A stretch of DNA of 64,000 nucleotides from an uncultured Pirellulales bacterium (GCA_938015445.1 CALLPE010000011.1:29438-93437), one strand, 5' to 3'; numbered from the stretch's first letter, positions 1-53,223 are shown. Translations and numbers: made by a program. The notes: a model not told the origin generated them from the letters alone.

Positions 1-845
1 TGCTTTTCGTGGATTGCTCGAACGGGGTGAACCGCCAACTGCGGGCCAGGGCGGAAGAATGCATGGACGATTTCTTCCGGCGGCTGGAGAGGTTACCGGT
101 CATCTTGATGGCCTTGAGACTGCTGGACTACAGTGTGCGGAATGACTCTCAGTTGCGGCGAGAGAAGTTCCAGGATCGGCCTTATGCAACCGAGTGGGTG
201 AACTTCCTGGGAGACCTGCTCTTCGAGCGACGAAAGGAGGCTCGTGGCGTGCTTGACTATCTTGACCGAAAAGCCAACGAACTGGCCAACGACTTGAAAG
301 AGGAGTACCCCGAGGCAGCACAAATGCTCGATAGCAAGCACGCCGAGCCCCACCCGGTGTGGCGCTTAGCCGAGACTCTAACGTATTTGCAAGGGCGTAA
401 GAACACGGTAGACAACGTAGTGTCGTTAGTGGATTCCTCATTACTCATGAATCGTCCGAATGGCCTCGGTGCACGGCGCCTTGTCACTCGCCAAGTTATT
501 GGCGGCGAAGCGGCAAGAAGCCGTGACGTCCGTTCGCTGGTATTCACCGATGCAGTGTTGGACTACCTGGTGCATCTCCACGTGCTGCCGGGAGGAGACA
601 AAACAGGCTATCGCCCCTTGGCCCTGCGAGACTTCTTGCACACGCTGGTCGACCGCTACGGGTTCTGTGTGGAGGTGGCCCCCCCGGGGATGTTGATTTC
701 CAGCGAGACCCTTCGGGCCAATCGAGGCGTGTTGGAAAAGAGACTGCGGGACCTGGGGCTTTTGGTAGGGGTCAACGACGCGGAGGCCATGAAACATCTT
801 CGGCCGCGATTCGGGTTTTCGGAGGAACTCAATGATATGGACTGA
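1..845 (+). CDS. Hypothetical protein, 5'-truncated by the window edge (the frame is open to nt 1). Its stop overlaps the start of the downstream giant ATPase gene (ATGATATGGACTGA), so the two are translationally coupled.
   Basis: Open frame running from the window edge. The ATG of the next gene (832) lies inside the stop region (843-845). I recognise no domain in the sequence. Confidence 0.6.
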   Translation, partial: LFVDCSNGVNRQLRARAEECMDDFFRRLERLPVILMALRLLDYSVRNDSQLRREKFQDRPYATEWVNFLGDLLFERRKEARGVLDYLDRKANELANDLKEEYPEAAQMLDSKHAEPHPVWRLAETLTYLQGRKNTVDNVVSLVDSSLLMNRPNGLGARRLVTRQVIGGEAARSRDVRSLVFTDAVLDYLVHLHVLPGGDKTGYRPLALRDFLHTLVDRYGFCVEVAPPGMLISSETLRANRGVLEKRLRDLGLLVGVNDAEAMKHLRPRFGFSEELNDMD

Positions 846-3800
846 GTTGCACGCCAAGTTGCTCTCCAAGGCTTTCGAGAATGTGCTGGGCGAGCCCGAC
901 AAGGGGGCGATCGCCTTCGTCCGCTGCCTTGCTCCGGAGGTCGTCGAGGCCCTGGCTGGCGACGCCACCTTTGCCCCAGCCTCCTGGCAGGTTTTTCGTG
1001 TGGCCGACGTGACGGACCTGGCAAAGCGGACCATTACCGCGGACCGGGCCGTGGAACTCCGTGAGACCAAAAAGGACGCTGTGCTCCTGCTGGTGGACCG
1101 GCACAAGGCCGGTGCTGGCATGGATGGAGTTTACAGCGCCGCACGCGAAATCCAAGAGAGCGTGTTGTTTAACGAAGCCACCCGCCTGGCCGGAAGTGCA
1201 ATCACCCAGCAACGCAAGCGCCCAATGCGCGACTACGCCGAGCAGGCGATCCGCAAGGCCCGGACGGGCGGGTATCGGGTTGCCATCTCGCGTTGGGCAG
1301 AGTTCGACTTTCTGGTTCGCGTGGCCCACGAAAAGCAACATCCCGGAGCACTTCTGTATCTTGTAGGACTTTGGCCTGTTGCTCAGGGGGCTCCTGCCGA
1401 CGACAAGGGCAGTCTGGACACCTCGCGGCTGTTTGTGGAGCGCCTTTTGGGCGTGGCCGCCCGCGGATTGACGCCCAGTCAGCGGATCGAGGCCCTGAAA
1501 CTCGTTGATCCCTTGCCCGAGCAGCAGACCGACTTGGAACGATTCCTCTGGGTAGCCGCCAAAAAGCCCCTGCTTGAGGCCCTCGCCGAATTGGCCCACC
1601 AGCCGCACCTTTGGGTCAACGCCCTGAAAATCCACAGCGCCTCCCGGACCATCCAGGCCATCGAACTGGTGCCCTGGCGTAAGGCCGACGGTGCGCTGGT
1701 GAAATGGTCTGGATTGGTCAAGGCGGACGACCCAAACGATCCCCCCAAACTTGTTCTGACCCCGAACGCAGCCAGTACCGGCAATTACTCGAAGCTCGAG
1801 GTGCGTTGGAAGACGCAGCCCGCCGAGTTGGACAAAGGTGCTGTACAGTACCACGTGTCTGTAATGACCGATTTGGACGGGGAACTCGCCTCGCGCGACA
1901 TTGTGCACACTGGAGGTAAGGAGCAGAAATGTCGTTTCACCAACGACGATTTCTCCTTGTTGGGGGACGACGTGCTGGTGTCGGCCCAGGTGCGGGTTTC
2001 CGTGGTCGGCAATGACACCGTAGAGCCCCAGAAAACAGAAGAGTTCATTATTTGCTTTGGGGAACCACAGGAGGCCGTGGCGGGTGCGGCCGGGAAAAAA
2101 GTTCGCACCTTCAGCGAAGGGATCATCGAACTGGCAAGCCGCAATGATGTTGTCGACAAGGTTTCGTCGGCAGATGGCCGGCAGACAGATGCCAAGAATT
2201 TCGTGGTCTGGCGGATCCCAGGGCGCAAGACTTTGCGCGTGTTCTATCCCCCTCTGGTGCAGGAGGTGGAAAGGGATTGGCATAAGCGGCCCGCTACCAT
2301 CGGGCGATGGCGTGTCAAAGTCCGCACCACGGGGGAGAGGGCTGGGCCAGTGGAGTTCGTGGAGCTTTCTCCCTCGGCGGCAAGCAGGGAGGAGCTGAGC
2401 GAGTTATGGGAGCGTGCGGCCGACGCTAGCCAGCGTATGGCCAAGTACATTGCCGAGCACGGCGGCGGGGTGGCTCAGGTGTATGCCGAGGACGCTCCGG
2501 ACTTCGGAGACGTGGTCAAGAAGTACCTGTTAGCTTGGGCCGCGCTGCTGGAGCATGACACCGTGGACCCCGCGGTGGCTTTGGCGCACACGGTCGAGGT
2601 CCAGTCGCTTTCGGGCAGGACCATCGGACTGATTGTCCTCCCCACCCATCCGCTGCGCGTGGCTTGGCAGGTGGCTTACGATAATCTGGTGCTTCACGCG
2701 CGATTTAGCGACAAGGCCTCGACTGAGAACATTCGGCAGGAACTCAAAGTCCTCGACGGCGCCATGTTCCCGGGCTTCCTGCCAGGATTGGAGACCGGCC
2801 AATCCTTCGTCTTTGCCGATACGTTAGGCTTCCACGCAGCAGCCATGGTTGCCGACACCGACAAGGAGCCCAAGGCGGCGGTAGCGATCCTCGCTCGGGT
2901 GCTTAGCGGGGGCGAAAGCTCCGATGCGGCGCCGACCGTGGGAGAACAAAGCGCCGAAGTGCTCAGCCGCGAGATCCGGAAGTACCTGGAATGTCATCCC
3001 GCCACCCGCCTGCTCTACATCCACGCATTGCGTGCCGGGGATGGCCTGACGGTGGCCCGCGCCCTAGGCAATGTCTATCGCAGTTATGCTGAAGCCAACA
3101 GCCAAGAATCCGGAGAAGAAGACGAACAGCAGCTTTCCTGCGAGCCGCCGGCTTTTGTGCTGGAACTCTATCCTTCGCAGGAACAGCGCGCCGTGGCCGG
3201 CCGGTTCCTGGTCGAGACGCGACAAAAACGTCGCACGGGTGCGGGCGCCGTCGCCGCCGAGGACCTGTGGCTTTCGGAATCGATCGACCTGCGCGGTGGC
3301 ATCCTTTTGCCCCGGCTGCGCTGGGCCCGCAAGGAACGCGAAGACCCCCAAACCCCAGCGCACCTGGCGATCGCCTTCGACACGTTCGCTTCCCGTGTCG
3401 AAGGAGAAGGCGAGTCGTCCCTTCCCCCGAAGCCGTCGGCACGCCCCTTCTATGCCTTCGGCTTGATCTCCTTTCTGGAGCGGGAGTACTCCGAAGCACC
3501 GTCGCCTCGGTGGCGCGGCAAGGTGCTCCGGGCCAGTGAAGGCGAGAAGCACCCTTCGGAGCGGTCCCACACCGAACGCCTCGTGAGATTACAGGAAGCC
3601 CTCCACAAATGCACAGCACGCAATCTTCCCGCCCCGGCCGCCCGGCCGGTGCTAGTCACCGAGATCCCTCCGGAGAAGGCGGAAAGCCTGCACACCCTAC
3701 ATCGACTTTGCGACTGGGTGGTTACTGTGGACCGCAATGCCGGGATCGAATATTTCGATTCTCCCCGCGATAACCGCGAAGTTTACGACGCGTATGTCAT

Positions 3801-5946
3801 CGACTGCGTGCCCGAGCGAGAAGACTTGGGCTGCTTGCAGTTGATTACCTCCACCGCAAATCTGGAAGAGGTACAAGGACTGGTCGAGGGTGCGCTGGAC
3901 CAAATGGGACTCATCCACAGCCGCCGGAATGCCGAGTTCCTCATGGAGAATCTCAAAGCCCTTAGTGGGCGCTTGGCTATCCGCCTGACTGGGCAGAAAG
4001 GGTTGACTGCGGAACTGGTGGCTTTGGCCCTATGTCATGCTTACTGCCGCGCTGCGCCAGAGACCACCGAGTGCTGGCTATCTTTGTCGGCGGGCTTTTT
4101 CATCCCAGTGGCCGATGTTCGGGACCTCCTGCCCCCCTTGATGCCCAAGCGAAAAAAGGATGAAGACAAGGCACAAACTGATGACGATGCGCAATCTCGT
4201 CCCGAGCTGATCTACGTTTCCCTCGGACCGCGCCGCGTGCTGACGTTTTCGTTCGTCGAAGTGCGATACCGCAGGCACCTCCGGACAGCACGCAGCCCCG
4301 AGTTGGTCAAGGAAATACTCTGCCGGATAACGAACCTCCGCGATCGCTGGGACGGGTGGTATGCCGATGCCGCCAACGCGGCCATCTTTTCCGCCGTGCG
4401 CCGGGCCGAACTTGCCCGAGTGCTCAGGTTCTATGCAGACAAGGCGCGCCGGCACGCAGACGACGAGAGCGGAGTCGGGCTGTCGGCCGAGAAGCATCGG
4501 GAGTTCCTCGCGGAAATCGACCGCATGATCGCGCGGGGCGCCGAGTATTCTTTTGTACCCCCGCGACACGGAGACCGGGGATGGATATTCTGCCCGGAGT
4601 ATACAAGTGCCGAACCCATGGAGATTTCACCGCCGCACGGGGAAGCGAAGATTTATCTGTTTGGGCCGGCCGCCTTGTCCGATGGCATCCCGATAAGTCG
4701 CTCCCCAAGTGCTCTGTCCCGCGAAGGTCCCTCCGCTCAGGGGGCGCCCGAAGACAAATCAGCGGAGCCTGGCCAAGCCCTTACAGGCTGCGTGCCGGCC
4801 GATGATTCCGTCTCCACCGCCGCCGGCGCGAACCATTGCCATGTTTCCCATGAGGCCACCCTGCCTCGCCCAGTCGCCTCGACCCCTAACATTACCCTGG
4901 GCAGCGATGTCCTCACCGGCGAGGATGTCTACTGGAGGCCGACCATTCAAGGGAACCCTCATCTTCTCCTGGCAGGATTGCCCGGCATGGGCAAGACCAC
5001 CTGCCTCGTGAACCTTTGTACCCAGATGCTGTATGAGGGAATCTGCCCCATCATCTTCTCGTACCATCAGGATATTGACCACCGACTGTCCCAGGCTGTA
5101 AACACCATCCGTTTTGTCGACTACGAAGGCCTTGGCTTCAATCCCCTAAGCGTCACGGACCGCACATCGCGCAAGGCTTATTTGGACGTGGCCGGCGCGC
5201 TGCGCGACATCCTTCTGGCCATTTTCCCCGACCTGGGTGAGCTTCAAGGCGAGGCCATACGAAGGGCCATCAAAGACAGCTTCATCGAGCTGGGATGGGA
5301 CGATCCGACTAAAAATCTGCTTGACCTCAAGGAACCGCAGTTCAGGCGTTTTGTGGACATTCTTCACAGCCAGCCCAACCCCGACCGCGGCTTGAAGACC
5401 CTGCTGGCACGCCTGGACGAACTTAGCGATTACGGTTTCTTCGAACTGAGGGAACGCCCGCAAAGCCTCTGGGAAACGGCGCAGCCCATCGTCATTCGTA
5501 TCCACACCACGCAAAACGAGCACCTCCAGCAAGCCTTTGCCTCGTTGGTCTTCTATGGCCTGTATAAAGACATGCTCCGCAGGGGCATCCAGGACCGCAT
5601 CACTCACGCCATCGTTTTCGACGAGGCCCATCGGGCCGCAAGACTGAAGCTTATTCCCACCATGGCCAAGGAGTGCCGAAAGTACGGCATCTCCCTCATC
5701 CTTGCATCCCAGGAAGCTAAGGATTTCCACACTTCCGTGTTTTCAGCGATCGCAAACTACCTCGTCCTTCGCCTGACTGAAACCGACGCCCGCGCCTTGG
5801 TCCGCAACGTGGCCCGCTCCGACCACCAGCGCGTGCTGGTCGACCGAATCAAACAGATGGAGCGGTTCAAGGCACTCTATTTTAGCGAGACGAGGGGGAA
5901 ACCAGCCATTGTCGCCCTTTCTGAATTCACCTCGCCGCCCGCTTGA
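832..5946 (+). CDS. Giant 1704-aa protein: about 1350 aa of unrecognised N-terminal sequence followed by a C-terminal HerA/FtsK/VirB4-type P-loop ATPase. Candidate DptH/DndH-like (phosphorothioation-dependent restriction) protein or a novel defence ATPase.
   Basis: Walker A 'LLLAGLPGMGKTTCL' (~nt 4960). Walker B 'AIVFDEAHRAA' about 200 aa later (~nt 5620). Sensor 'GISLILASQEAKDF' then 'YLVLRL'. The 200-aa Walker A to B spacing fits the HerA/FtsK fold, not classic AAA+ or an SF2 helicase. Coupled to the upstream gene. Confidence 0.75.
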   Translation: MIWTELHAKLLSKAFENVLGEPDKGAIAFVRCLAPEVVEALAGDATFAPASWQVFRVADVTDLAKRTITADRAVELRETKKDAVLLLVDRHKAGAGMDGVYSAAREIQESVLFNEATRLAGSAITQQRKRPMRDYAEQAIRKARTGGYRVAISRWAEFDFLVRVAHEKQHPGALLYLVGLWPVAQGAPADDKGSLDTSRLFVERLLGVAARGLTPSQRIEALKLVDPLPEQQTDLERFLWVAAKKPLLEALAELAHQPHLWVNALKIHSASRTIQAIELVPWRKADGALVKWSGLVKADDPNDPPKLVLTPNAASTGNYSKLEVRWKTQPAELDKGAVQYHVSVMTDLDGELASRDIVHTGGKEQKCRFTNDDFSLLGDDVLVSAQVRVSVVGNDTVEPQKTEEFIICFGEPQEAVAGAAGKKVRTFSEGIIELASRNDVVDKVSSADGRQTDAKNFVVWRIPGRKTLRVFYPPLVQEVERDWHKRPATIGRWRVKVRTTGERAGPVEFVELSPSAASREELSELWERAADASQRMAKYIAEHGGGVAQVYAEDAPDFGDVVKKYLLAWAALLEHDTVDPAVALAHTVEVQSLSGRTIGLIVLPTHPLRVAWQVAYDNLVLHARFSDKASTENIRQELKVLDGAMFPGFLPGLETGQSFVFADTLGFHAAAMVADTDKEPKAAVAILARVLSGGESSDAAPTVGEQSAEVLSREIRKYLECHPATRLLYIHALRAGDGLTVARALGNVYRSYAEANSQESGEEDEQQLSCEPPAFVLELYPSQEQRAVAGRFLVETRQKRRTGAGAVAAEDLWLSESIDLRGGILLPRLRWARKEREDPQTPAHLAIAFDTFASRVEGEGESSLPPKPSARPFYAFGLISFLEREYSEAPSPRWRGKVLRASEGEKHPSERSHTERLVRLQEALHKCTARNLPAPAARPVLVTEIPPEKAESLHTLHRLCDWVVTVDRNAGIEYFDSPRDNREVYDAYVIDCVPEREDLGCLQLITSTANLEEVQGLVEGALDQMGLIHSRRNAEFLMENLKALSGRLAIRLTGQKGLTAELVALALCHAYCRAAPETTECWLSLSAGFFIPVADVRDLLPPLMPKRKKDEDKAQTDDDAQSRPELIYVSLGPRRVLTFSFVEVRYRRHLRTARSPELVKEILCRITNLRDRWDGWYADAANAAIFSAVRRAELARVLRFYADKARRHADDESGVGLSAEKHREFLAEIDRMIARGAEYSFVPPRHGDRGWIFCPEYTSAEPMEISPPHGEAKIYLFGPAALSDGIPISRSPSALSREGPSAQGAPEDKSAEPGQALTGCVPADDSVSTAAGANHCHVSHEATLPRPVASTPNITLGSDVLTGEDVYWRPTIQGNPHLLLAGLPGMGKTTCLVNLCTQMLYEGICPIIFSYHQDIDHRLSQAVNTIRFVDYEGLGFNPLSVTDRTSRKAYLDVAGALRDILLAIFPDLGELQGEAIRRAIKDSFIELGWDDPTKNLLDLKEPQFRRFVDILHSQPNPDRGLKTLLARLDELSDYGFFELRERPQSLWETAQPIVIRIHTTQNEHLQQAFASLVFYGLYKDMLRRGIQDRITHAIVFDEAHRAARLKLIPTMAKECRKYGISLILASQEAKDFHTSVFSAIANYLVLRLTETDARALVRNVARSDHQRVLVDRIKQMERFKALYFSETRGKPAIVALSEFTSPPA

Positions 5947-6265
5947 CTAATGTTACCACATCTGCCAATCACGCGTGTGCATCCACAGGGGCCGGAAACA
6001 CCTAAGAGTCTGTCTAAGAAAGAAAGTACGTAATCCACGTATTTTGCCTAGTTGGTGGTTACCCCAATGGCGAATTGGTGCAGATTGTTCCCCAACAGCT
6101 TTTCGTAGATGGAAAACGCTTGGCGGGGCGGAACAGTCATGGACGATCGCCGGAAGACCAACCGACGTTGGAATCCCAGTTAAGGCGTCCAATAAGCCCA
6201 TGTTCAGCAAGACGTGCCTCCGCAGCACCACTTGGTTGTTTTGTGTGATGGATGTAATCCCCAGC

Positions 6266-6550
6266 ATGGACCTTCGTCCCTTTTACAACTACTACGAACG
6301 CGAACTGCGGAGCGAGGCAGGCCGGCGTTTGTACGCGGCCCGCAAGCACATCGTGGAACCGGTGTTTGGACAGTTCACATTCGCCCGCGGATTCCGCAAG
6401 TTCCTTCTGCGTGGGCTGGAAAAAGTTGCTGCGGAATGGCAGCCGATCTGTTCGACGCACACACTGCTCGAGAATCTGGATGGTTCAGTGGCACCCAAGT
6501 GGCCCTTAACGCTACCGGTGCGTGCTGAGGCCGGCAACGAGGTCAACTGA
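6266..6550 (+). pseudogene. C-terminal remnant (about 95 aa) of an IS5/IS1182-family DDE transposase.
   Basis: The translation 'RKHIVEPVFGQFTFARGFRKFLLRGLEKVAAEWQPICSTHTLLENL' matches the conserved C-terminus of IS5/IS1182 transposases. No DDE core, no intact N-terminus and no inverted repeats were seen. Confidence 0.6.
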
Positions 6551-15413: not shown

Positions 15414-15480
15414 GCGGGGAGCGATTTTCAGTAAAGTCGTTCAGCTTGTGCGGAGAGCGATTTTCAGAAAGTCGTTCCGG
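15414..15480. repeat. Direct repeat GCGG(G/A)GAGCGATTTTCAG(T)AAAGTCGTTC x2, about 125-190 nt upstream of secreted paralog A.
   Basis: Copies at 15414 and 15450, about 28 of 30 identical. Confidence 0.7.
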
Positions 15481-15604
15481 TAGACCGAAATCGATATTTG
15501 TTTTCTCGGCACCAGACCATCTTGTTGCTTATTCCTGTTACCCGACCGTCGCAGGCCCGGCGGATGGCGGCGATTTAATGCGGTGGATTGATAAGGTGGT
15601 GGAT

Positions 15605-17338
15605 ATGGTCCCAACCAAAGCAAAGCCGCCAAGCACAGCTAAACATTTTGCGCTTATTATCGCTGCACTAATTATTGTTATTCGGACACTGGTGTGCGGC
15701 GGTCCCGCAGGCTGGGCGGCGGAGCGGACGGAGCCGAAACCGCTGGCCGTGCTCAGTTTCGCCGGCATCGGCGAGTTGGAAAGCGACATCGCGTATCTGG
15801 GCAAACTGGCCGGCAATCCCGGCCTGGCGACCGACTTCGATGCGGCGCTGAACCGGGCCACCGGCGGTGCGGGCTTGGCCGGAGTGGACAAATCGCGCCC
15901 CTGGGGCGCCGTGCTTCAAACCGACGACGGCCAGCCGACCATCTGGCTATTCCTGCCCGTTACCAACCCCGAAAAATTCTTGACTGTTTTGGAACCGCAA
16001 CTTGGCAAGCCGCGAAAACTGGCCGACGACCTGTGGGAGTTCTCTTTGGGGCCGGAAGGAACGCCGGTTTTCATGCTCTTTAAAGGAGACTGGGGTTTCG
16101 TCGCCCAGCGGCGCAACGTGTTCGCCGCTGTGCCTGGCAACCCGGCAAGCCTCTTGGGCACGCTGCCCAGGCAATATGATCTGGCCATCCGCCTGATGCC
16201 CGGCAAGTTGTCGGCCGCGCAGCTCAACGGTGTGTTTGAGCAAATTGGGCAATTTTTGGATTCTTTGGTGCAACAACCCAATGGCTCAAGCGACGTGCAA
16301 TCGGCCTTACGCCGCCAGGTGGTTCGCCGGACGACGCAATTGCTCGCTGCGCTTGCGGCCGAGCTAGAGCAGGTTGTGCTGGGCTTTTCGCTCGATCAGG
16401 GGTCTGGGCGAGCACAACTCGACTTGGTCTTTAACGCTAAGCCCGGCAGCCAACTCGCTCGGCAGTTCGCCGAACTTCGCTCTAGCAGGACCAACTTTGC
16501 AGGCTTTGGCAGCAGCGGGGCGGCACTGACAGGAATCTGGGCCGGTAGACTGCCGGAAGCGAAGGCTGCCGCTTTAGAAGCGCTACTGGATGACATGCGG
16601 AGCATAGTACTGCACCAGGTGGCGTTGGCGGATTTTCCGGAGGAAGACCGCAAAACCGCTCGCACGGCGGTCAACCAGTTTTTTGCTGTCTTTCAGCAAA
16701 CAGTACGACAGCGCCAGGTCGATGGCGGGATGATCGGTGTGCTGAACCCCGAGGCGGCGACTCTGGCAGTTGGCCTGGGCCTGTCGGAGACCGAAAAGCT
16801 GGAAGACGTGAGCAAGCTGGCGGCCGATTTGGTGCGCAAGCACCGCCCGGAATACGCCGCCTGGATCAAACTCCAGGCCCAACGGCACCGGGGCGTGAAC
16901 TTTCATACTATCCAAGTGCCGATACCTACCAGCGGCGCCGACAGCCACAAGCTGACGGCGCTATTTGGCGAAAGCATCGAGCTAGCCGTAGGCATAGGTC
17001 GGCAAGCGCTATATTTCGCCGCGGGGCGCGACGCACTGGAGACCCTCAAGCAGGCCATAGACCGATCGGCCGAGAACGAAGGCAAACTTGTGCCGCCGGT
17101 AGAGCTGTCGCTGAGGCTGGGGCCTGTGGCAGAAACGGTGGCTGTACTGGGTCCTGCCGGCCAGCGCGCGCTGGCTGAATTGATAGCCAAGGAACTGAAA
17201 AAGATTTCTGGCGGCGATCAGCTAAACCTGCTGGTTACGCCCACGGCGTTCGGCGTCCGCTACCGACTGGAAGCCGAAGAAGGTCTGTTGCGTCTGCTGG
17301 CTAGAATGACAAATATCAAGGCAGAGGAAATAAAGTAG
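15605..17338 (+). CDS. Secreted hypothetical protein, paralog A of a tandem pair.
   Basis: Strong SD 'AAGGTGGTGG' before the ATG at 15605, signal peptide 'MVPTKAKPPSTAKHFALIIAALIIVI'. Clearly alignable to the downstream gene (for example 'KSRPWGAVLQTDDGQPTIWLFLPVTNPEKFLTVLEPQLG' against 'GSKPWCLVVQTKGEEFPVYLFVPVTDFKKLMEVLPKLG'). Confidence 0.7.
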   Translation: MVPTKAKPPSTAKHFALIIAALIIVIRTLVCGGPAGWAAERTEPKPLAVLSFAGIGELESDIAYLGKLAGNPGLATDFDAALNRATGGAGLAGVDKSRPWGAVLQTDDGQPTIWLFLPVTNPEKFLTVLEPQLGKPRKLADDLWEFSLGPEGTPVFMLFKGDWGFVAQRRNVFAAVPGNPASLLGTLPRQYDLAIRLMPGKLSAAQLNGVFEQIGQFLDSLVQQPNGSSDVQSALRRQVVRRTTQLLAALAAELEQVVLGFSLDQGSGRAQLDLVFNAKPGSQLARQFAELRSSRTNFAGFGSSGAALTGIWAGRLPEAKAAALEALLDDMRSIVLHQVALADFPEEDRKTARTAVNQFFAVFQQTVRQRQVDGGMIGVLNPEAATLAVGLGLSETEKLEDVSKLAADLVRKHRPEYAAWIKLQAQRHRGVNFHTIQVPIPTSGADSHKLTALFGESIELAVGIGRQALYFAAGRDALETLKQAIDRSAENEGKLVPPVELSLRLGPVAETVAVLGPAGQRALAELIAKELKKISGGDQLNLLVTPTAFGVRYRLEAEEGLLRLLARMTNIKAEEIK

Positions 17339-17577: not shown

Positions 17578-19269
17578 GTGAGAAAGATTGTTGCATCGGC
17601 GTTGATTGTTGGGCTGCTGCTGGGGCTGGCTGCGCCGCTGCCAGCTCAAGAGGCAAAGCCCTTGGTCACGGCCACGTTCGCCGGGTACGACAAGTTGATG
17701 TCTACCGTCCAGTACATCGGCAATCTGGCCAACATTCCGGACCTGGTGAAAGGATTGGAGGAACAAATAAAGAACGCCACCGGAGGCGAAAAAGGCATCC
17801 CAGGATTGGATGGATCCAAACCCTGGTGTCTGGTGGTGCAAACCAAAGGCGAAGAGTTCCCGGTTTACCTCTTCGTGCCGGTGACGGACTTCAAGAAACT
17901 GATGGAGGTGCTGCCCAAACTGGGGTTAGAAGCCAAACAGGATGGCGACGTGTATGAAATCGGAGAGGGCCCGCAACCGATGTTCGCAACCGGCAAGGGC
18001 AATTGGGCGGTGGTGGCGCAAAGCGCCGCGGCGTTGAAAGACGCGCCGGCCGATCCGATGGCCCTGGTCGGCGACATGTACAAGCGCTACGACCTGGCTG
18101 CAAACCTGGCCATGCAGAACATTCCCCAGGAAACTCGCAAGATGATCGTCGACCAGCTTGAGATGGGAATGGCGCTGGGGCTGGAGCGGATGCCGAACGA
18201 GACCGACGAGATGTACGCCCTCCGCTCGAACATGGCCAAGCAATCGCTGAAAGAGATCGCCAGGGGGTTCGAGGAGGTGGAGTCGGTCCAGCTTGGCTTG
18301 GCAGTAGACCAGCAATCCAAGTCGGCATATCTGGACCTGGACGTGAAGGCCGTCCCCGGAACCGAAACAGCTAAACAGGTCGCCAAGATGGCCGAAGCGA
18401 AAACCGATTTTGCCGGTTTTGAGCTGCCGGGCGCGGCTATCACTATGAGTATTTCTAGCTTGCTGTCTGAGCAGGACGCTGCGGAACTGAAGCGAATACT
18501 GGAAGCCGTCCGCGCCCAGACCATGCAGGAACTCGAAAGCCAGGCACTGGGACCAGACGAGCTGGCCCTTGCCAAGAAATTGCTGACGGAAGTTTTCGAC
18601 GTTATAGCAACCAATGTCGACGCCAAGAAAGTAGACGTCGGCATGTCGTTGGTGCTCGAACCGAACGCGATAACGTTGGTTGCCGGCGCGGCGGTAGCCG
18701 ATGCGACCAAGCTTGAAGGCGTGGTCAAAAAACTGGTCGAAATGGCCGGAAAAGACGAACCCGAAGTGGCCAAACACGTCAAGCTGGACGCAGAGACTTA
18801 CAACGGCGTGCGGATGCACACAGCTAGCATCCCCGTGGACGAAGAAGAACCTAAGAAGTTCTTCGGCGACAACGTGGACGTGGTGCTGGGCGTGAGCGAC
18901 AACGCATTGTACCTGGGCTTGGGACGCGACGCCATGGAAATGCTCAAGGCGGCCATCGACCGCTCGAAATCGCAGCGCGCCAAAAAGACCGCGCCGCTAA
19001 AGCTGGCCGTGGCACTGGGCCCGATATTCAAGCTCGCCGCCGAGAGCGCCCAAGATGCAGATAAGCAAGCGGTTATCATGATGGCAATGATGCTCGATCA
19101 AGCGAAGGGCAAAGATCGCATTTCGGTCACCAGCACGGCAATACCGGGCGGCCAAAGAATTCGGATCGAAATGGACGAGGGCGTGCTCAAGGCCATCCCG
19201 ATGCTTATTATGCTCGGCGCCGCCAGACAAGCGCTGCCAATGGGCTTGCCGCCAGAAATGGAAATGTGA
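17578..19269 (+). CDS. Secreted hypothetical protein, paralog B of a tandem pair.
   Basis: GTG start with SD 'GAAGGAGA' 8 nt upstream. Signal peptide 'MRKIVASALIVGLLLGLAAPLPAQ'. Paralogous to 15605..17338. Confidence 0.75.
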   Translation: MRKIVASALIVGLLLGLAAPLPAQEAKPLVTATFAGYDKLMSTVQYIGNLANIPDLVKGLEEQIKNATGGEKGIPGLDGSKPWCLVVQTKGEEFPVYLFVPVTDFKKLMEVLPKLGLEAKQDGDVYEIGEGPQPMFATGKGNWAVVAQSAAALKDAPADPMALVGDMYKRYDLAANLAMQNIPQETRKMIVDQLEMGMALGLERMPNETDEMYALRSNMAKQSLKEIARGFEEVESVQLGLAVDQQSKSAYLDLDVKAVPGTETAKQVAKMAEAKTDFAGFELPGAAITMSISSLLSEQDAAELKRILEAVRAQTMQELESQALGPDELALAKKLLTEVFDVIATNVDAKKVDVGMSLVLEPNAITLVAGAAVADATKLEGVVKKLVEMAGKDEPEVAKHVKLDAETYNGVRMHTASIPVDEEEPKKFFGDNVDVVLGVSDNALYLGLGRDAMEMLKAAIDRSKSQRAKKTAPLKLAVALGPIFKLAAESAQDADKQAVIMMAMMLDQAKGKDRISVTSTAIPGGQRIRIEMDEGVLKAIPMLIMLGAARQALPMGLPPEMEM

Positions 19270-46840: not shown

Positions 46841-49660
46841 CTACGGCGAGACCGAGGGCGGCTTATCGTCGGCGGGCTGCTGCTTTTCGAGCACTTTGGG
46901 TTTGCCTTGCACGATGGCGTCGATGAGCAAGTACTGCAAGTTGAACACTTGCATCAAGGCGTCATCGGGGATGACATCCAGCAGGAATCCCATGTTGGCG
47001 TCGCAGAAGCGGTTGCCGAAGCCCACTACCCAGACTTCCCCTTTACCGTACTTGGCCCTGCTGCCTACAGGTGTGCCGCCTAGACGTGCAAACGGCTCGC
47101 CACCCGACACTTCTCGGGCGTGCGCCACCGGCACGCGCGGCCAGTTCCAATCCGGCTGGAGCAGCCCGGCGGGTTCCTCCATGGCACGCAGCTCGATGCC
47201 GAAAGGCTCCAATAGCACGTTGGCGGTGGACTGCTCATTGTCGGCCGAGTCGATCAGCAGCAGCTTGCCGCCGTCGGCCACGTACTGTTCCAGCCGCTGA
47301 AGGTAGCGTGGGGAAGGCTGCCGATTCGGATAGATGACCACCACCACGTCGGGGCGCGAAGACGCTCGGTCCGTACGGCCGAATACTTCCAGGCCTTTGC
47401 GTTGGGCGGTGAAGTAGCCCAATCGCAGTATCCAGCGCTCGAAGATGCCGAACCCTTGCTGTTGGCCGGTGATGAAGCCGTTTTTGGGGAGCACGGCTGC
47501 GCTGACGGTGCGGTCCATCGCCAAGCGCACTAGTGGGCTGTGCGGTTCCGGGGGTGGCATCGCCCGGTGATAGCCCCACAGAATCACCGGCCCACAAAGC
47601 CCGAACCCGCACAATCCGGCCCCCAGCAACGTGAACCACGAGTCGGTCCAATGGGCGGCAAGAACGACCGCCGCTACCAGTGCCATAATCCCCAGGGCGA
47701 ACCACAGCCAGCGGGGCAGGAGGTAATCGTTGCGGCGGTGGAGCCACTCGATCATGTTGATCCACAGTTCGGCCTTGCCAGGCTCGAAGGTGCAGAAGTT
47801 CGAGAAGATGGTCGAATCGCTAAAAGCCAGTACGCGACCTTTGCCGTATCGGGTGGCCCAGAGCTGAACGAACGCGCCGTAGCGCATCTCTGGGCTGTCG
47901 ACGGCTTGCGGGTAGAAGTTGCGTACATGATAATCGGCCATGCGGTTTTTCAGTCCTGTGCCCAGTATGGCCGCTCTCCCGCCCCCAAACGGCTCGATAG
48001 TAGCCGAGGTGGCGAAGTCCATCTCCTCCACGTGTAGCACTGCCGGATGGGGCAGCAGCGTGCGGCGGTACACATCGTCGAAGAACGAGTCGATGCCGAA
48101 GGCGCAATCCAGTCGGAAGCGGAAACCGAAGCGCTCGGCAATCGGATTCAAATACGTGCTGGTACCGTATACATCGGTATGTTCGCCGATTAGCAGCAGA
48201 CCGCCTCCCCGTTCCACGAAGCGGACGACGGATTCGATCTCCTCGTCCGAAAAAGGCCGGGTGGGAACTTTTATTATCAGCACGGCGCAGCCCAACAGCA
48301 TCTTGTCGTCCAGCGGGGTGGCCACTCGCTTGAAGTCGTAGAACTTGGCGCTGTAGTTGGCGATGGAGTAGTAGTTGTAATTGGCGTCGTGTCCGTACCA
48401 GGTGACGTCGTAGGGCCTATCGACCCGCTCCCAGACTTTATTCGGATCAGGATTGTATTCCTCTACCAACACCTCGCCTCGCACCCGGTAGCCCGGCGGA
48501 TCATAGCACACCGCCGCCGTCAGCACCGCGCCGGCCAGCAGCGCGCACACAACGGCAGCCACCGGCCTGAACCACGCCGGCAGTCGCTCTAGTAGCTTTT
48601 GAGGCCCGCGATAGCGTTGGCGGGCTTCGCTTGCCAGTCGGGTGATAAGTGGTTGCGGGCTTGGGTGCTGGCCCTCAGCCGCAGCAGGCGCCGCAGTAAA
48701 ACGCCAACTCATCACCGCCGGCGGCAGAATCATCAACAGGTGTAGCCAAGGATTCCAAAAGATGCGCATGGCTTCCAATGGGGCGTCGTAGTCGGTGCGC
48801 AGCACATCGTTCAGGTACAGGGCGATCATCACTCCGGCTCGCACCGGAAGCCACAATGCCGTAAGCAGTACCACCATCCCCAGCCGCGAAAGCCAACGCA
48901 GCCACCACCAACGCTTTTGGGAATTCGCCGGGGTTTGCCACGCCAAATACACGGCAGACCCGACCAGGAAGCACATCGTCACCGGTCCGACCAGCAAATC
49001 CCAGGTAGGCGCCAGTCGATGGTTTTCCCGCATCGAAAACACCGTGACCATCTGGCCGTACAACCACGAGTGGCTAGCGCAAGCGTCCACTCCCAGCATT
49101 CGTACCACGGCGGCCAGCAGGTTGCTGAGCAGCGGCGGCAGATCGTGCGATCGGGCCGTAAGAGTCTGATACGCCCACAGCGACAACCATTGGGCGAGCA
49201 TGATCGCGCCGCCGGCGATCATCGCCCCGCCAACCCGCTGCCCTGCCCCGGTTAGCCGGCGAGATAAAGCCGTCGTTTGCAAAACCGCTGCGCCCAACAC
49301 CAACAGCACCATCGCTGCCGGATACGGCAGCAACTCGGCTGGTTTGTCTTGTACCCAGGCGCGCCAGTACGGCCACAGCGAAAAGACAAGCGCCGGGGTG
49401 ATCAATCCGGCAGCGAGCAACGCTTGAGACCGCGTGGGCGCCCCGCCGATTCCGCTGGCCAACAGCGCGATACCCAACACGACCATCAGGCCCCAGGCAG
49501 GCCAGGTCGAATCGGGGTACGCCTCCAGACGCAGCATTAGGGCCACTTGTTCAGCCAGCACATCCCACTGCTGCGGCCACTTGGTTTGACGATAGTGGCT
49601 CACACCCCATAGCCACGAGGCCGATAGCAACGCCACGCCAATCCACCCCAGCAGTCTCAC
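46841..49660 (-). CDS. Giant polytopic membrane protein (939 aa) with two GldG/ThuA-like (class-I glutamine-amidotransferase-like, DUF4350-like) extracytoplasmic domains.
   Basis: Multiple N-terminal TM helices. 'VLIIKVPTRPFSDEEIESVVRFVERGGGLLLIGEHT ... RVLAFSDSTIFSNF' and 'VVVVIYPNRQPSPRYLQRLEQYVADGGKLLLIDSADN ... VWVVGFGNRF'. Its start overlaps the stop of the upstream gene by 4 nt. Confidence 0.7.
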   Translation of the reverse strand: MRLLGWIGVALLSASWLWGVSHYRQTKWPQQWDVLAEQVALMLRLEAYPDSTWPAWGLMVVLGIALLASGIGGAPTRSQALLAAGLITPALVFSLWPYWRAWVQDKPAELLPYPAAMVLLVLGAAVLQTTALSRRLTGAGQRVGGAMIAGGAIMLAQWLSLWAYQTLTARSHDLPPLLSNLLAAVVRMLGVDACASHSWLYGQMVTVFSMRENHRLAPTWDLLVGPVTMCFLVGSAVYLAWQTPANSQKRWWWLRWLSRLGMVVLLTALWLPVRAGVMIALYLNDVLRTDYDAPLEAMRIFWNPWLHLLMILPPAVMSWRFTAAPAAAEGQHPSPQPLITRLASEARQRYRGPQKLLERLPAWFRPVAAVVCALLAGAVLTAAVCYDPPGYRVRGEVLVEEYNPDPNKVWERVDRPYDVTWYGHDANYNYYSIANYSAKFYDFKRVATPLDDKMLLGCAVLIIKVPTRPFSDEEIESVVRFVERGGGLLLIGEHTDVYGTSTYLNPIAERFGFRFRLDCAFGIDSFFDDVYRRTLLPHPAVLHVEEMDFATSATIEPFGGGRAAILGTGLKNRMADYHVRNFYPQAVDSPEMRYGAFVQLWATRYGKGRVLAFSDSTIFSNFCTFEPGKAELWINMIEWLHRRNDYLLPRWLWFALGIMALVAAVVLAAHWTDSWFTLLGAGLCGFGLCGPVILWGYHRAMPPPEPHSPLVRLAMDRTVSAAVLPKNGFITGQQQGFGIFERWILRLGYFTAQRKGLEVFGRTDRASSRPDVVVVIYPNRQPSPRYLQRLEQYVADGGKLLLIDSADNEQSTANVLLEPFGIELRAMEEPAGLLQPDWNWPRVPVAHAREVSGGEPFARLGGTPVGSRAKYGKGEVWVVGFGNRFCDANMGFLLDVIPDDALMQVFNLQYLLIDAIVQGKPKVLEKQQPADDKPPSVSP

Positions 49661-52600: not shown

Positions 52601-53223
52601 ATCGTAGCCCCGATGCACAGCGGCCAGCCGGTAATCGCCGCAGCCAGCTCGCCCAACCGCTGCCCAAGGTGGTTGGCCACGATCCACCCTATTGCAGCAG
52701 AAGCGTAAGTAGCACGGTAAACCGCAAAAACGGCCAGCGCTGCGCCAACGGTTACGAAAGTTCTGCGCTGGGGTTCGGGCGTTCCGACGGCCAGCGCCAC
52801 CAACAGCACTCCTGGGGCCATGCAGGTCACTGCCGGAAGCTCAGCAGCAGCCAGCCACACGGCGACAACAATCCCCAACACGGCGCAACCCAATGCGGTC
52901 AATCTGCGCCGACGCGCAGCAGCCAACTGTCGCGGCAAAGCCTCCTCGGCAAGCGAATTCCTTAGCGCCAAACTTCCCAGCGGGCTGGCAAATAGCAACA
53001 CGATGCCCAAAACGATCCACAGCAGTGCCCTACGCAACGGATGGGCCATCAGGCCCGTAGAACCAGCAGCGAGCCATGCCCCTAATAAGGCTGCTAAGCA
53101 CGCTACGAGCTGTCCGCGGATCGATGCGCGCACAATGGCAGCGACGTCCTGGCCGGCAGCGGGGCAGTCAGCCTCGGACTTCTCTGCCCGATCGAACGCC
53201 GGTTTCGACCTCGACTCGTTCAA
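49657..53223 (-). CDS. Giant polytopic membrane protein (1188 aa), paralogous in architecture to 46841..49660: two GldG/ThuA-like domains and a Pro-rich C-terminus.
   Basis: 'AVVLIYPNKPWQKGQLRRLWQFVRAGGSLLVLGEHT ... RVVVFGDTSLMSNG' and 'MYVVIAPDRPFSAQERETVKRFVRCGGVLIWTVGYE ... RVAVIGDSGFALNKN'. More than 10 predicted TM helices. By my reading the first codons do not fit the displayed bases exactly, so the start may be off by a few nt. Confidence 0.68.
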   Translation of the reverse strand: MNESRSKPAFDRAEKSEADCPAAGQDVAAIVRASIRGQLVACLAALLGAWLAAGSTGLMAHPLRRALLWIVLGIVLLFASPLGSLALRNSLAEEALPRQLAAARRRRLTALGCAVLGIVVAVWLAAAELPAVTCMAPGVLLVALAVGTPEPQRRTFVTVGAALAVFAVYRATYASAAIGWIVANHLGQRLGELAAAITGWPLCIGATMAGLDFLVPMLCLAVLLPLRVGKPLGRRLPAAVQVFVLVLLVLLAHFVYLLLLSSTGAVLERYPQLRPGSLSPDAVAKLSSLERWLRELLIWNFPATAAVVHSLLAGLMLWLALRSNNQAIAAGSQAATIAGQQTPIGGVGDDRIDSPLVSLALGRLAEQSSDATVSGANHIATRWLTLAMVLVAVLFAAVGNLSWHRPEVQGKKVVIYQEGFLNWLRPEHGQYGRLSIGMYGMLPSFLRSYGIQVLVSENLSEEDLAGAQAVVLIYPNKPWQKGQLRRLWQFVRAGGSLLVLGEHTVDEAPEEGGGARFNDVLRPTSVRVAFDSATFAIGGWLHSYDTVSHPTTAGIGDQQNEFGVVIGASLGCADYKPSADNKLAMTKGAEHAPPDGQASAEAQADSVQADTAAAHSDSDCEPGIDCPVEPAVARLGTLRWPARPILVGRWGWADPGDREAGASKMGNHLYDPGERLGDLVLAAEEPLGKGRVVVFGDTSLMSNGLTINCHEYVSRLMAYLVDAGGWTQAGWRQVCCVLAAAALAALVLWCPAVWPMLTATVALAIALVVSTVLSWRNWEITPDCKSLAELSRDAPENRPSGDREAQESTGEAGESWIGKRPAPDPPRKLAYVDAAHLNRYSFESWREDGTAGLFLTLMRNGYLTLSLSRLTEERLLQRIAPEEAPTDIKPPRPDEPEDEDISLARQELKRWRIKAQMYVVIAPDRPFSAQERETVKRFVRCGGVLIWTVGYEDIAPSRQMLGEFGFRVGQLQRYEGTLGPPPMWRYFKLPYLYYPDGRARNFVRFHCGWPVECDCPEHRMKVIAAHPDDGPMIVVRNYGRGRVAVIGDSGFALNKNLEREDGGPFDLMYENADFWRWFIAALEDAPPWIPPVPKPVQRPPAAEQPPELLQLEQQPPPDGPRPPAMPEPMDQPPSGPLLLPPDSSPVPSDSSLLPPNPAVPPERSAAGQTAGSGQRTEQVARGDEEPQP

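What the first reader, a model, noticed from the sequence alone, without database searches (positions are those of the whole stretch)
1..5946. Coupled two-gene module ending in a 1704-aa HerA/FtsK-type ATPase: candidate DptG/DptH-like or novel defence system
A partial upstream gene is translationally coupled (start and stop overlap) to a 1704-aa protein. About 1350 aa of that protein is unrecognised N-terminal sequence. The C-terminus is a P-loop ATPase with the HerA/FtsK/VirB4 signature set: Walker A GLPGMGKTT, DEAH-type Walker B about 200 aa later, and ASQ/'YLVLRL' sensor motifs. HerA-family ATPases recur in anti-phage systems. The size and architecture, a partner of about 300-450 aa followed by a protein of about 1700 aa with a C-terminal FtsK/HerA-like motor, match what I recall of DptG/DptH from Dnd restriction. 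The module sits in an accessory context: an IS remnant and CAZyme-like genes follow it, and housekeeping genes begin only at about 10 kb. No modification genes (dndBCDE-like) are visible downstream. If the pair is Dnd-restriction-like it may be orphan; otherwise it is a new large HerA-fusion system.
Basis: partly seen in the sequence, partly recalled or inferred. Interest (0 to 1): 0.75.

Follow-up and report, generated by a model that had tools for sequence, protein, structure and literature searches.

The report
MADS-like DndFGH-type anti-phage gene module
The window starts inside a three-gene anti-phage cassette of a kind already described (the DndFGH type, closest to genes mad6-8 of the MADS system); it is an untested, distant member that usually has no DNA-modifying partner genes.

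Summary
A partial gene (nt 3-845) overlaps by 14 nt the start of an intact 1704-aa gene (832-5946) whose last ~350 aa are a HerA/FtsK ATPase.

In 28 related loci from at least 10 phyla, the large protein is the last gene of a fixed three-gene cassette:
- F, ~1340 aa: NERD nuclease, pseudokinase, Ser/Thr kinase and a DndF-type P-loop.
- G, ~600 aa.
- H, ~1680 aa.

All three align end to end, at 24-27% identity, with genuine MAD6, MAD7 and MAD8 of the methylation-associated defence system MADS. Canonical DptFGH matches only through the P-loop domains, and every curated Dpt and MADS HMM cut-off is missed.

No methylase or dnd/ssp gene is a conserved neighbour. Flanks are unrelated housekeeping genes or other defence systems.

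This NERD-kinase-DndF subset of standalone DndFGH systems was described computationally in 2024, so the locus is a new member of a known kind. One oddity: this copy alone has the nuclease motif changed to PE...EVR.

The parts
3..845 (+). 3' part (280 codons) of the G-like gene, a homologue of MAD7, DndG and SspG. The gene starts upstream of the window.
   Evidence: NCBIfam antiphage_MADS7 scores E 1.7e-21 and 76.9 bits on profile positions 270-529 (cut-off 410). PADLOC gives mad7 at 5.7e-7 and SspG at 7e-4. It is 61% identical to aa 327-592 of the 603-aa G protein of L002.
821..845 (+). Junction between G and H: GGAGG Shine-Dalgarno (821-825), H start ATG 832-834, G stop TGA 843-845, giving a 14-nt overlap.
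   Evidence: Read directly from the sequence. The same 14-nt overlap, or a 2-nt gap, occurs in relatives.
832..5946 (+). H gene, 1704 aa, a MAD8/DndH-type multidomain protein.
   Evidence: There are 742 homologues; the top 120 are full length at 57-71% identity. BLASTP to genuine MAD8 gives E 2e-30 over aa 470-1230.
832..1611 (+). H aa 1-260: N-terminal alpha/beta domain plus helical bundle, possibly like an SF2-helicase C-domain followed by an HTH.
   Evidence: AF2 pLDDT is 76-89 with alternating strand and helix, then helices. Foldseek hits Brr2 helicase cassettes at E 4e-5 to 5e-4 with low TM-score. The assignment is tentative.
1639..2364 (+). H aa 270-511: beta-sandwich domain or domains.
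2584..3711 (+). H aa 585-960: alpha/beta Rossmann-like region with a methyltransferase-like fold, probably catalytically inactive.
3679..4701 (+). H aa 950-1290: the most conserved part of the protein, holding the putative PD-(D/E)xK nuclease. It contains the block DWVVTVDRNAGIEYFDSP (aa 961-978) and the motif RP-E1125...E1143-V-R1145, where the family has RP-D...E-V-K.
   Evidence: Column identity is 0.93-0.95 over aa 951-1050. PD..FxEVK is present in 115 of 120 members, and VEVK is shared with MAD8. The strand-strand-strand-helix order in AF2 model 2 fits the PD-(D/E)xK fold. No fold-search hit confirms it. The D1125E and K1145R changes are unique to this copy and are also present in an independent assembly.
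4702..4878 (+). H aa 1291-1349: poorly conserved, disordered linker.
   Evidence: Column identity is 0.38 and pLDDT is below 50.
4879..5943 (+). [quoted passage not shown] Walker A is at nt 4975-5001 and Walker B at nt 5611-5631.
5975..6550 (+). Transposase remnant just downstream. It marks the edge of the accessory region and is not part of the system.
   Evidence: Pfam DDE_Tnp_1_6 scores E 1.4e-8 on only the last third of the profile. It is called as a 116-aa gene in other assemblies.

Best explanation
The window begins inside a three-gene anti-invader cassette of the DndFGH superfamily. It belongs to the subset whose F protein carries NERD, pseudokinase and Ser/Thr kinase domains in front of the DndF-type P-loop. 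The only experimentally tested relatives of that subset are MAD6, MAD7 and MAD8 of MADS. The window holds the last 280 codons of G and all of H. F is inferred to lie just upstream.

Proposed mechanism, by analogy and inference:
- G (a multi-wHTH-type adaptor) and the N-terminal body of H (helicase-like alpha/beta domain, beta-sandwiches, inactive methyltransferase-like module) recognise DNA.
- The HerA/FtsK motor of H translocates along it.
- The PD-(D/E)xK site just before the motor nicks or cuts it.
- F acts as sensor and regulator (nucleotide-binding P-loop, kinase) and as a back-up effector (NERD).

Unlike MADS or Dnd, this family normally has no linked methylase or phosphorothioation genes. 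Self/non-self discrimination must therefore rest on something else: features of invading DNA, infection signals, or an unlinked modification.

What is shown: gene order, homology, domain folds, motifs and variable genomic context. What is inferred: complex formation, nuclease and translocase activity, and the defence phenotype.
For: 1. Conserved cassette. F (1316-1381 aa), G (596-622 aa) and H (1650-1770 aa) occur in the same order and strand in 28 of 30 loci with a full-length H. These come from Binatia, Caldilineaceae, Spirochaetia, Latescibacterota, Planctomycetota, Bryobacterales, Longimicrobiales, Opitutales, Deltaproteobacteria and others. The cassette is also on a conjugative Rhizobium phaseoli plasmid.

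2. Homology to validated MADS proteins of a Piscinibacter plasmid, which pass the NCBIfam cut-offs (MAD6 760 bits, MAD7 658, MAD8 231).
- F aligns with MAD6 end to end, 24% identity, E 7.5e-54.
- G aligns with MAD7, E 2e-19.
- H aligns with MAD8, E 5e-32. The window's own H gives E 2e-30, collinear over 807 columns.

3. Link to Dnd/Ssp.
- F aa 782-1043 hits SspF at 2e-15 and DptF at 3.7e-4.
- F has Walker A GNAGDGKT and the 'IND' motif described for DndF (PMC10853773).

4. The same kinds of domain in H as published for DndH: beta-sandwiches like those of glycosidases, a methyltransferase-like Rossmann fold without catalytic motifs, a PD..EVK motif before the motor, and a HerA/FtsK domain with Q sensor (PMC10853773 section 'DndH').

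5. Defence-type genomic behaviour.
- No conserved neighbours.
- Flanks are housekeeping genes in L002.
- Other flanks carry defence systems: type I RM in L022 and L026, a PLD-SNF2 helicase plus Eco57I-like methylase in L003, and SIR2 plus a type ISP enzyme in L035.
- Degraded copies exist in L007, L024 and L031.
- An IS remnant lies next to the window copy.

6. In MADS, mad6, mad7 and mad8 are each required for phage resistance (bioRxiv 10.1101/2023.03.30.534895). DndFGH has DNA nickase and translocase activities (abstract of PMC11662687).
Against: - F is not visible in the window, and the upstream sequence could not be retrieved. A linked methylase in this particular genome therefore cannot be excluded.
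- All curated HMM cut-offs are missed by a wide margin: MAD7 77-154 bits against 410, MAD6 154-165 against 460, and no hit at all to MAD8, DptH or DptG.
- The N-terminal body shows no detectable sequence similarity to DptH.
- The window copy has both putative catalytic residues replaced (D1125E, K1145R). It may be nuclease-impaired.
- No member of this family has been tested experimentally.
Confidence: 0.75

Rival explanations
1. It is the restriction half of a true MADS system: a methylase, specificity subunit and the other mad1-5 genes lie upstream of the window, and the system distinguishes self by methylation.
For: The best HMM hit of the partial gene is MAD7. MAD6, MAD7 and MAD8 are the closest characterised homologues. 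The upstream sequence is unknown.
Against: - About 4 kb upstream of F and up to 10 kb downstream of H were examined in 28 relatives. No conserved neighbour was found, and there were no BLAST hits to MAD1, MAD4 or MAD5.
- The N6-methylases found near the cassette in 4 loci are in no conserved position. Three were scanned: two are type I HsdM (L022 sits in a complete HsdR-HsdS-HsdM system; L026 has an HsdS nearby), and L018 is an Eco57I/MmeI-type methylase about 4 kb downstream of H. The L027 hit was not scanned.
- Scores are far below the MADS equivalog cut-offs.
Confidence: 0.1
2. It is an orphan canonical Dnd restriction module (DptFGH) that has lost dndABCDE.
For: The length is the same (1704 aa against 1693), and the ATPase occupies the same position (1292-1695 against 1275-1684) and is the best structural match. 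JGI labels some homologues 'DptH'.
Against: - TIGR03237 and TIGR03236 give no hit, while a real DptH scores 1185 bits and a real DptG 293 bits.
- BLASTP with DptG and with the N-terminal 1250 aa of DptH finds nothing in any of the 34 loci or in the first 20 kb of the window.
- hhalign finds nothing outside the ATPase.
- G is about 600 aa against 441, and F is about 1340 aa with NERD and kinase domains against 549.
Confidence: 0.07
3. It is a decaying or neofunctionalised remnant: the cassette in this genome is no longer a working nuclease-based defence.
For: - Among 120 homologues, only the window copy has D1125E and K1145R in the PD..EVK motif. It also has 28 deviations at positions that are at least 97% conserved, against a median of 5.
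- A transposase remnant lies 30 nt downstream.
- Degraded copies exist elsewhere, in L007, L024 and L031.
Against: - The 1704-codon frame is intact.
- The ATPase motifs are intact.
- Both changes are conservative.
- Its nearest relative, P0002, is similarly divergent (20 deviations) yet keeps D and K.
- The same sequence is maintained in an independent assembly (99.8% nucleotide identity, 5 synonymous and 4 non-synonymous differences).
Confidence: 0.15
4. The ATPase is a conjugative coupling or VirB4-type motor, and the module belongs to a mobile element's DNA-transfer apparatus.
Against: - No relaxase, T4SS gene or transmembrane segment appears in any of the loci.
- The ATPase is fused to a 1300-aa DNA-binding and nuclease-like body.
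Confidence: 0.02

Closest known systems
MADS (methylation-associated defence system) genes mad6-mad7-mad8, Pseudomonas aeruginosa SMC4386 (Maestri et al.; bioRxiv 10.1101/2023.03.30.534895). Reference copy used here: Piscinibacter gummiphilus plasmid NZ_CP136338.1.
   Same: - Same three-gene order and similar sizes: 1391, 557 and 1858 aa against about 1340, 600 and 1700 aa.
- All three proteins align along their length: F with MAD6 E 7.5e-54, G with MAD7 E 2e-19, H with MAD8 E 5e-32 (for the window's H).
- Shared motifs DWV.T.DRN.GIE.FD and VEVK.
- Same NERD, kinase and P-loop layout in F.
   Different: - Identity is only 24-27%.
- All NCBIfam MADS cut-offs are missed, and the MAD8 N-terminal model gives no hit.
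- There is no mad1-5 (HTH, N6-methylase, AAA ATPase, specificity subunit) next to the cassette in relatives.
- The taxa differ: environmental phyla rather than mainly Proteobacteria.
DndFGH / DptFGH restriction module of the Dnd phosphorothioation system, and the 'standalone DndFGH' family as analysed by Rakesh, Aravind & Krishnan (PMC10853773).
   Same: - F-G-H gene order and H of about 1700 aa.
- The same kinds of domain in H: beta-sandwiches, a methyltransferase-like fold without catalytic motifs, and a PD..ExK motif before the motor.
- A DndF-type P-loop with the ND motif.
- The paper explicitly describes a DndF subset with NERD plus inactive and active S/T/Y kinase domains. It also reports that DndFGH is usually uncoupled from modification genes.
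   Different: - There is no detectable sequence similarity to enterobacterial DptG or to the N-terminal 1275 aa of DptH.
- TIGR03236, TIGR03237 and TIGR03238 cut-offs are not met.
- No dndABCDE is present.
SspFGH (restriction module of SspABCD single-strand phosphorothioation; PMC8092258).
   Same: There are weak profile hits: F to SspF at 2e-15, and G to SspG at 7e-4. The three-gene logic is the same.
   Different: The hits cover only the P-loop region of F and a short C-terminal stretch of G. No sspABCD is nearby. H was not matched by any Ssp model.
BREX type 2 kinase PglW.
   Same: F shares the NERD, pseudokinase and active Ser/Thr kinase arrangement. NCBIfam PglW hits range from 5.7e-10 to 5.8e-14 on F of the family, and reach 6.9e-65 on genuine MAD6. 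PMC12839542 notes the identical arrangement.
   Different: The C-terminal half differs: a DndF P-loop here, against iSTAND plus triple wHTH in PglW. No PglZ, PglX or other BREX gene is present.

Membership tests
Canonical DptFGH (Dnd restriction) | H matches TIGR03237 (DptH) at or above 620.65 bits. | tested here: not met
   The window H gives no hit at E<=0.01. A positive control, the DptH N-terminal fragment of L037, scores 1184.8 bits.
Canonical DptFGH (Dnd restriction) | The partner matches TIGR03236 (DptG). | tested here: not met
   Neither the window's partial G nor the full-length G of L002 gives a hit. BLASTP with DptG finds nothing in any locus. The control DptG scores 293 bits.
Canonical DptFGH (Dnd restriction) | An F protein matches TIGR03238 (DptF) at or above 50 bits. 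| tested here: not met
   F of relative L002 scores 19.5 bits, E 3.7e-4. F of the window itself lies outside the window and could not be tested.
Canonical DptFGH (Dnd restriction) | The N-terminal ~1275 aa of H are homologous to DptH. | tested here: not met
   hhalign of the family profile (Neff 4.4) against a DptH alignment matches only 1292-1695 to 1275-1684. All other alignments have probability below 1%. Caveat: the DptH profile was shallow (Neff 1.4).
Canonical DptFGH (Dnd restriction) | The C-terminal ATPase is of the DndH type. | tested here: met
Canonical DptFGH (Dnd restriction) | Linked dndABCDE genes. This is typical of the canonical islands, although the 2024 reanalysis reports that it is not universal. 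| tested here: not met
   None lie downstream in the window. DndB, DndC and DndE have no BLAST hits in the 34 loci or in the first 20 kb of the window; DndD has one weak hit (E 1.4e-4, L031). The sequence upstream of the window is unknown.
MADS (mad1-8) | MAD7 equivalog model NF047733 at or above 410 bits. | tested here: not met
   The window's partial G scores 76.9 bits. Full-length G scores 153.6 bits in L002 and 95.1 in L035. Genuine MAD7 scores 657.8 bits.
MADS (mad1-8) | MAD8 equivalog model NF047742 (N-terminal 200 aa) at or above 175 bits. | tested here: not met
   There is no hit in the window H, L002 H or L035 H. Genuine MAD8 scores 230.9 bits.
MADS (mad1-8) | MAD6 equivalog model NF047741 at or above 460 bits. 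| tested here: not met
   Relatives score 164.7 and 154.1 bits. Genuine MAD6 scores 760.2 bits. F of the window cannot be tested.
MADS (mad1-8) | Pairwise homology of all three proteins to MAD6, MAD7 and MAD8 along their length. | tested here: met
   BLASTP gives E 7.5e-54 (F, aa 5-1323), 2e-19 (G) and 5e-32 (H). The window H against MAD8 gives E 2e-30.
MADS (mad1-8) | An adjacent methylase (mad2), specificity subunit (mad5) and mad1, mad3 and mad4. | tested here: not met
   No conserved neighbour is found in 28 relatives. MAD1, MAD4 and MAD5 have no hits, and MAD2-like methylases occur in 4 loci in no conserved position (type I HsdM in L022 and L026, Eco57I/MmeI-type in L018; L027 not scanned). 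This could not be tested for the window's own upstream region.
DndFGH superfamily by architecture (PMC10853773) | A three-gene F-G-H operon. | tested here: met
   Found in 28 of 30 loci. The window shows G and H with overlapping stop and start. F in the window is inferred.
DndFGH superfamily by architecture (PMC10853773) | A DndF core: P-loop with intact Walker A and an ND motif, optionally preceded by NERD plus inactive and active kinase domains. | tested here: met
   In the F family, GNAGDGKT, AINDG, NERD EID..VIEVKHW, and kinase HGD.SPRN and DYD are conserved. Pfam finds NERD and Pkinase. PADLOC SspF scores 2e-15. All of this was tested on relatives only.
DndFGH superfamily by architecture (PMC10853773) | DndH body: SF2-like domain, HTH, two beta-sandwiches, TRDs and an inactive methylase. 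| tested here: inconclusive
DndFGH superfamily by architecture (PMC10853773) | An active REase (PD-(D/E)xK) domain before the ATPase. | tested here: inconclusive
   The family has RPD...FxEVK in 115 of 120 members, in a strand-strand-strand-helix context. The window copy has PE...EVR. No fold-search confirmation was obtained.
Conjugative coupling protein / VirB4 ATPases | Family HMMs above cut-off, and neighbouring T4SS or relaxase genes. | tested here: not met
   VirB4, TraD and TrwB models score 16-26 bits against cut-offs of 366-643 (Pfam TrwB_AAD_bind 18.7 against 20.5). No such neighbours are found.

The most novel reading that the evidence does not exclude
This widespread family has 858 clusters at 50% identity for the N-terminal body alone. 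It may be a modification-independent branch of the MADS/DndFGH lineage that recognises invaders without any epigenetic self-mark. The window's copy, with its nuclease motif rewired from PD..EVK to PE..EVR, might then represent a lineage that defends by a non-cleaving route, such as translocase-driven interference or kinase/NERD-mediated abortive infection.
Probability: 0.2. Interest if true: 0.55.

Novelty: new member of a known kind. Interest (0 to 1): 0.3.

Why it matters
The locus adds an uncultured-lineage member to the NERD-kinase-DndF subset of DndFGH-type systems. That subset has one experimentally tested representative, the MAD6-8 part of MADS, and there it works together with a methylase.

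The family found here is large and spread across many environmental phyla. NCBI annotates its members only as 'ATP-binding protein', and the curated Dpt and MADS models miss it. It almost always lacks modification genes.

It is therefore a reasonable test case for an open question: how do standalone F-G-H modules tell invader DNA from host DNA? It does not reveal a new principle. The architecture and the uncoupling from modification were both published in 2024.

Tried and rejected
1. Retrieving the sequence upstream of the window. The exact H protein and the 404-aa neighbour are not on record. The GH28 neighbour led only to short contigs from other samples that break inside H. The window's F gene and any upstream methylase therefore remain unseen.

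2. Identifying the organism. Rfam found nothing, and cluster look-ups returned no names.

3. The afdb50 fold library was unavailable. AlphaFold models of DptH and MAD8 could therefore not be compared directly.

4. Fishing for full-length DptH with the 7es4 C-domain sequence returned only fragments. A full dnd island was recovered instead through the look-up of encoding contigs and a third protein search. Those DptH sequences are 84-100% identical to the query, so the profile is shallow.

5. A PDB profile search with the family alignment found nothing for the N-terminal 1340 aa.

6. Menshen (NsnABC) was considered from memory. There is no PADLOC hit, and the paper shows an unrelated architecture.

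7. Recurrent flank clusters turned out to be generic paralogue families (ABC transporters, short-chain dehydrogenases, AAA_14/DUF4143), not partners of the system.

Full report
**Observation**

- A frame open from the window edge (nt 3) ends at TGA 843-845.
- The next gene starts at ATG 832, is preceded by GGAGG at 821-825, and runs 1704 codons to 5946. The two genes overlap by 14 nt.
- The N-terminus MIWTELHA matches the family consensus.
- Walker A (GLPGMGKTT, aa 1382-1390), Walker B (IVFDEAH, aa 1594-1600) and the ASQ and YLVLRL motifs are present.
- Pfam and NCBIfam recognise nothing in the first ~1350 aa.
- Downstream lie a DDE transposase fragment, two glycoside-hydrolase-like genes, and then housekeeping genes.

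**What the two genes are**

The partial gene's best match is NCBIfam antiphage_MADS7 (E 1.7e-21, 76.9 bits, cut-off 410). It also has weak PADLOC hits to mad7 and SspG.

The large protein hits PADLOC DndH (2.8e-23) and mad8 (4e-14), but only with aa ~1350-1696. It gives no hit to TIGR03237 (DptH).

**Related loci show a three-gene cassette**

A scan of one genome per species found 30 full-length homologues at 49-64% identity. They come from Binatia, Caldilineaceae, Spirochaetia, Latescibacterota, Planctomycetota, Bryobacterales, Longimicrobiales, Opitutales, Deltaproteobacteria and others.

In 28 of these loci the protein is the last gene of a fixed cassette:
- F, 1316-1381 aa;
- G, 596-622 aa;
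- H, about 1650-1770 aa.

F contains several parts:
- a NERD nuclease (conserved EID...VIEVKHW);
- a degenerate kinase-like region;
- a Ser/Thr kinase with an intact G-loop, VAKV, HGD.SPRN and DYD;
- a P-loop region (GNAGDGKT, AINDG) that hits SspF (2e-15) and, weakly, DptF.

The wider family is large. There are 742 homologues at 90% clustering. The N-terminal 1200 aa alone match 858 clusters at 50% identity. NCBI calls these proteins 'ATP-binding protein', and JGI labels some of them 'DptH'.

**Closest characterised relatives**

A tblastn search of plasmids found two informative records.
- The same triad sits on a conjugative Rhizobium phaseoli plasmid, next to SIR2, IS66 and a type ISP enzyme.
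- A more distant triad sits on a Piscinibacter plasmid.

The Piscinibacter locus is a genuine MADS. Its proteins pass the NCBIfam cut-offs (MAD6 760 bits, MAD7 658, MAD8 231). They are preceded by an HTH gene, an N6-methylase, an AAA ATPase and two further genes.

Against these reference proteins:
- F aligns with MAD6 end to end (24% identity, E 7.5e-54);
- G aligns with MAD7 (E 2e-19);
- H aligns with MAD8 (E 5e-32);
- the window's own H aligns with MAD8 collinearly over 807 columns (E 2e-30), sharing DWV.T.DRN.GIE.FD and VEVK.

For comparison, a canonical dnd island was recovered with DptF, DptG, a split DptH, and DndB, DndC, DndD and DndE. It matches only through two regions: the F P-loop (E 3e-5) and the H ATPase (E 1e-14). 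DptG and the N-terminal 1250 aa of DptH find nothing. Profile-profile comparison agrees: probability 99% for 1292-1695 against DptH 1275-1684, and nothing elsewhere.

**Structure**

Two AlphaFold2 models were made from 69-sequence alignments.

The N-terminal model is weaker, with mean pLDDT 64. It is good for aa 1-410 and 470-700, and poor beyond 960. Its fold matches are modest but coherent:
- beta-sandwiches of the complement/macroglobulin and glycosidase sugar-binding type;
- Brr2 helicase cassettes (Foldseek E about 1e-4).

H has no [DNS]PP[YFW] motif in the methyltransferase-like region (aa 500-1000; 0 of 120 members) and no GxGxG motif. The methyltransferase-like module is therefore probably inactive.

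The most conserved part of the protein is aa 950-1150. It contains RPD...FxEVK in 115 of 120 members, in a strand-strand-strand-helix context that fits a PD-(D/E)xK nuclease. No fold-search hit confirmed this, because the ATPase dominated the result list.

This set is the same kind of domain content that Rakesh, Aravind and Krishnan describe for DndH: a helicase-like domain, beta-sandwiches, an inactive methylase, a REase and a captured HerA/FtsK domain (PMC10853773). They also describe a DndF subset with NERD plus inactive and active S/T/Y kinases (restated in PMC12839542). They conclude that DndFGH is usually a standalone system.

**Context**

All-against-all clustering of ORFs in the flanks found no conserved neighbour outside F, G and H. 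Every other large cluster was a shadow ORF inside the cassette. The small recurring clusters are generic paralogue families.

MAD1, MAD4, MAD5, DndB, DndC and DndE have no hits. N6-methylases occur near the cassette in 4 loci, in no conserved position. Two are type I HsdM (L022 in a complete HsdR-HsdS-HsdM system, L026 with an HsdS nearby), L018 is an Eco57I/MmeI-type methylase about 4 kb downstream of H, and the L027 hit was not scanned. L003 has a separate Eco57I-like methylase next to a PLD-SNF2 helicase.

In L002 the cassette sits between ordinary metabolic and transport genes. Frameshifted, truncated or interrupted copies occur in L007, L020, L024 and L031. This is the behaviour expected of a horizontally moving defence cassette.

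**A peculiarity of this copy**

Among 120 homologues, only the window protein has D1125E and K1145R, the two putative catalytic residues of the PD..EVK motif. An independent assembly from another sample is 99.8% identical over 15 kb and carries the same residues, so this is not an assembly error.

The protein lies on a long branch. It has 28 deviations at positions that are at least 97% conserved, against a median of 5. Its nearest relative has 20 deviations and keeps D and K. Whether the nuclease is weakened, altered or unaffected cannot be decided here.

**Mechanism (inferred)**

The inference rests on two sources. In MADS, mad6, mad7 and mad8 are each required for defence. DndFGH has reported nickase and translocase activities.

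The most likely working model is an F-G-H complex:
- G and the N-terminal body of H bind DNA;
- the HerA/FtsK motor translocates it;
- the PD-(D/E)xK site nicks or cuts it;
- F senses nucleotides or infection cues and carries back-up effectors (kinase, NERD).

How self DNA is spared without a linked modification is unknown.

**Verdict**

This is a new, distant and experimentally untested member of a kind already described in the literature. Interest is modest.

The main gaps are:
- the unseen upstream region of this genome;
- the weak N-terminal structural model;
- the absence of any functional test for this family.

Noticed in passing
window 4198-4275 (H aa 1123-1148): The window's H is the only one of 120 homologues with both D1125E and K1145R in the conserved RPD...FxEVK motif. 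The same residues occur in an independent assembly (L039).
   Followed up: partly
L039, L040 and L041 compared with the window (their starts map to window nt 2007, 5311 and 5694): Assemblies of the same population from other samples all break inside or just after the H gene, whereas the housekeeping side assembles through. This suggests strain-level heterogeneity or coverage change at the cassette.
   Followed up: no
window 5975-6550: A DDE_Tnp_1_6 transposase fragment (only the C-terminal third of the profile) lies directly after the H stop codon. Other assemblies call it as a 116-aa gene.
   Followed up: partly
window 46841-53223, minus strand: Two adjacent large paralogous genes (939 and 1188 aa) both carry DUF4350 and ABC_transp_aux (GldG-like) domains. 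They overlap by 4 nt.
   Followed up: no
window 15446-17338 and 17578-19269, plus strand: Two consecutive ORFs of 630 and 563 aa have no Pfam match at E<=1e-4.
   Followed up: no
L020 12949-14252: In this Binatia genome the H gene is split into two pieces (aa 9-986 and 981-1678) separated by about 1.3 kb, which looks like an insertion.
   Followed up: no
L024 4092-15688: All three genes of the closest genome-collection relative (64% identity, Planctomycetota MAG) are broken into many short ORFs. This is either a pseudogenised cassette or long-read frameshift errors.
   Followed up: no
L003 11792-18524; L010 12602-14569; L026 11389-17622; L022 1-4041: Other defence-type genes lie directly beside the cassette:
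- L003: a PLD-SNF2 helicase plus an Eco57I/MmeI-like methylase.
- L010: a PLD nuclease.
- L026: HsdM, an HTH-IrrE (M78) protein, HsdS and DUF6414.
- L022: a complete type I RM system.
   Followed up: partly
L036 15987-21332 (Piscinibacter plasmid): The genuine MADS operon used as reference is followed by a Tn7-like set of genes (TnsA, transposase, TniB, TniQ).
   Followed up: no
one search hits (P0121-P0240): Canonical DptH C-domains carry Pfam PF01935 (DUF87) and PF10412 (TrwB_AAD_bind). The window H reaches TrwB_AAD_bind only below its cut-off (18.7 bits against 20.5) and gives no DUF87 hit, consistent with a different HerA/FtsK clade.
   Followed up: no
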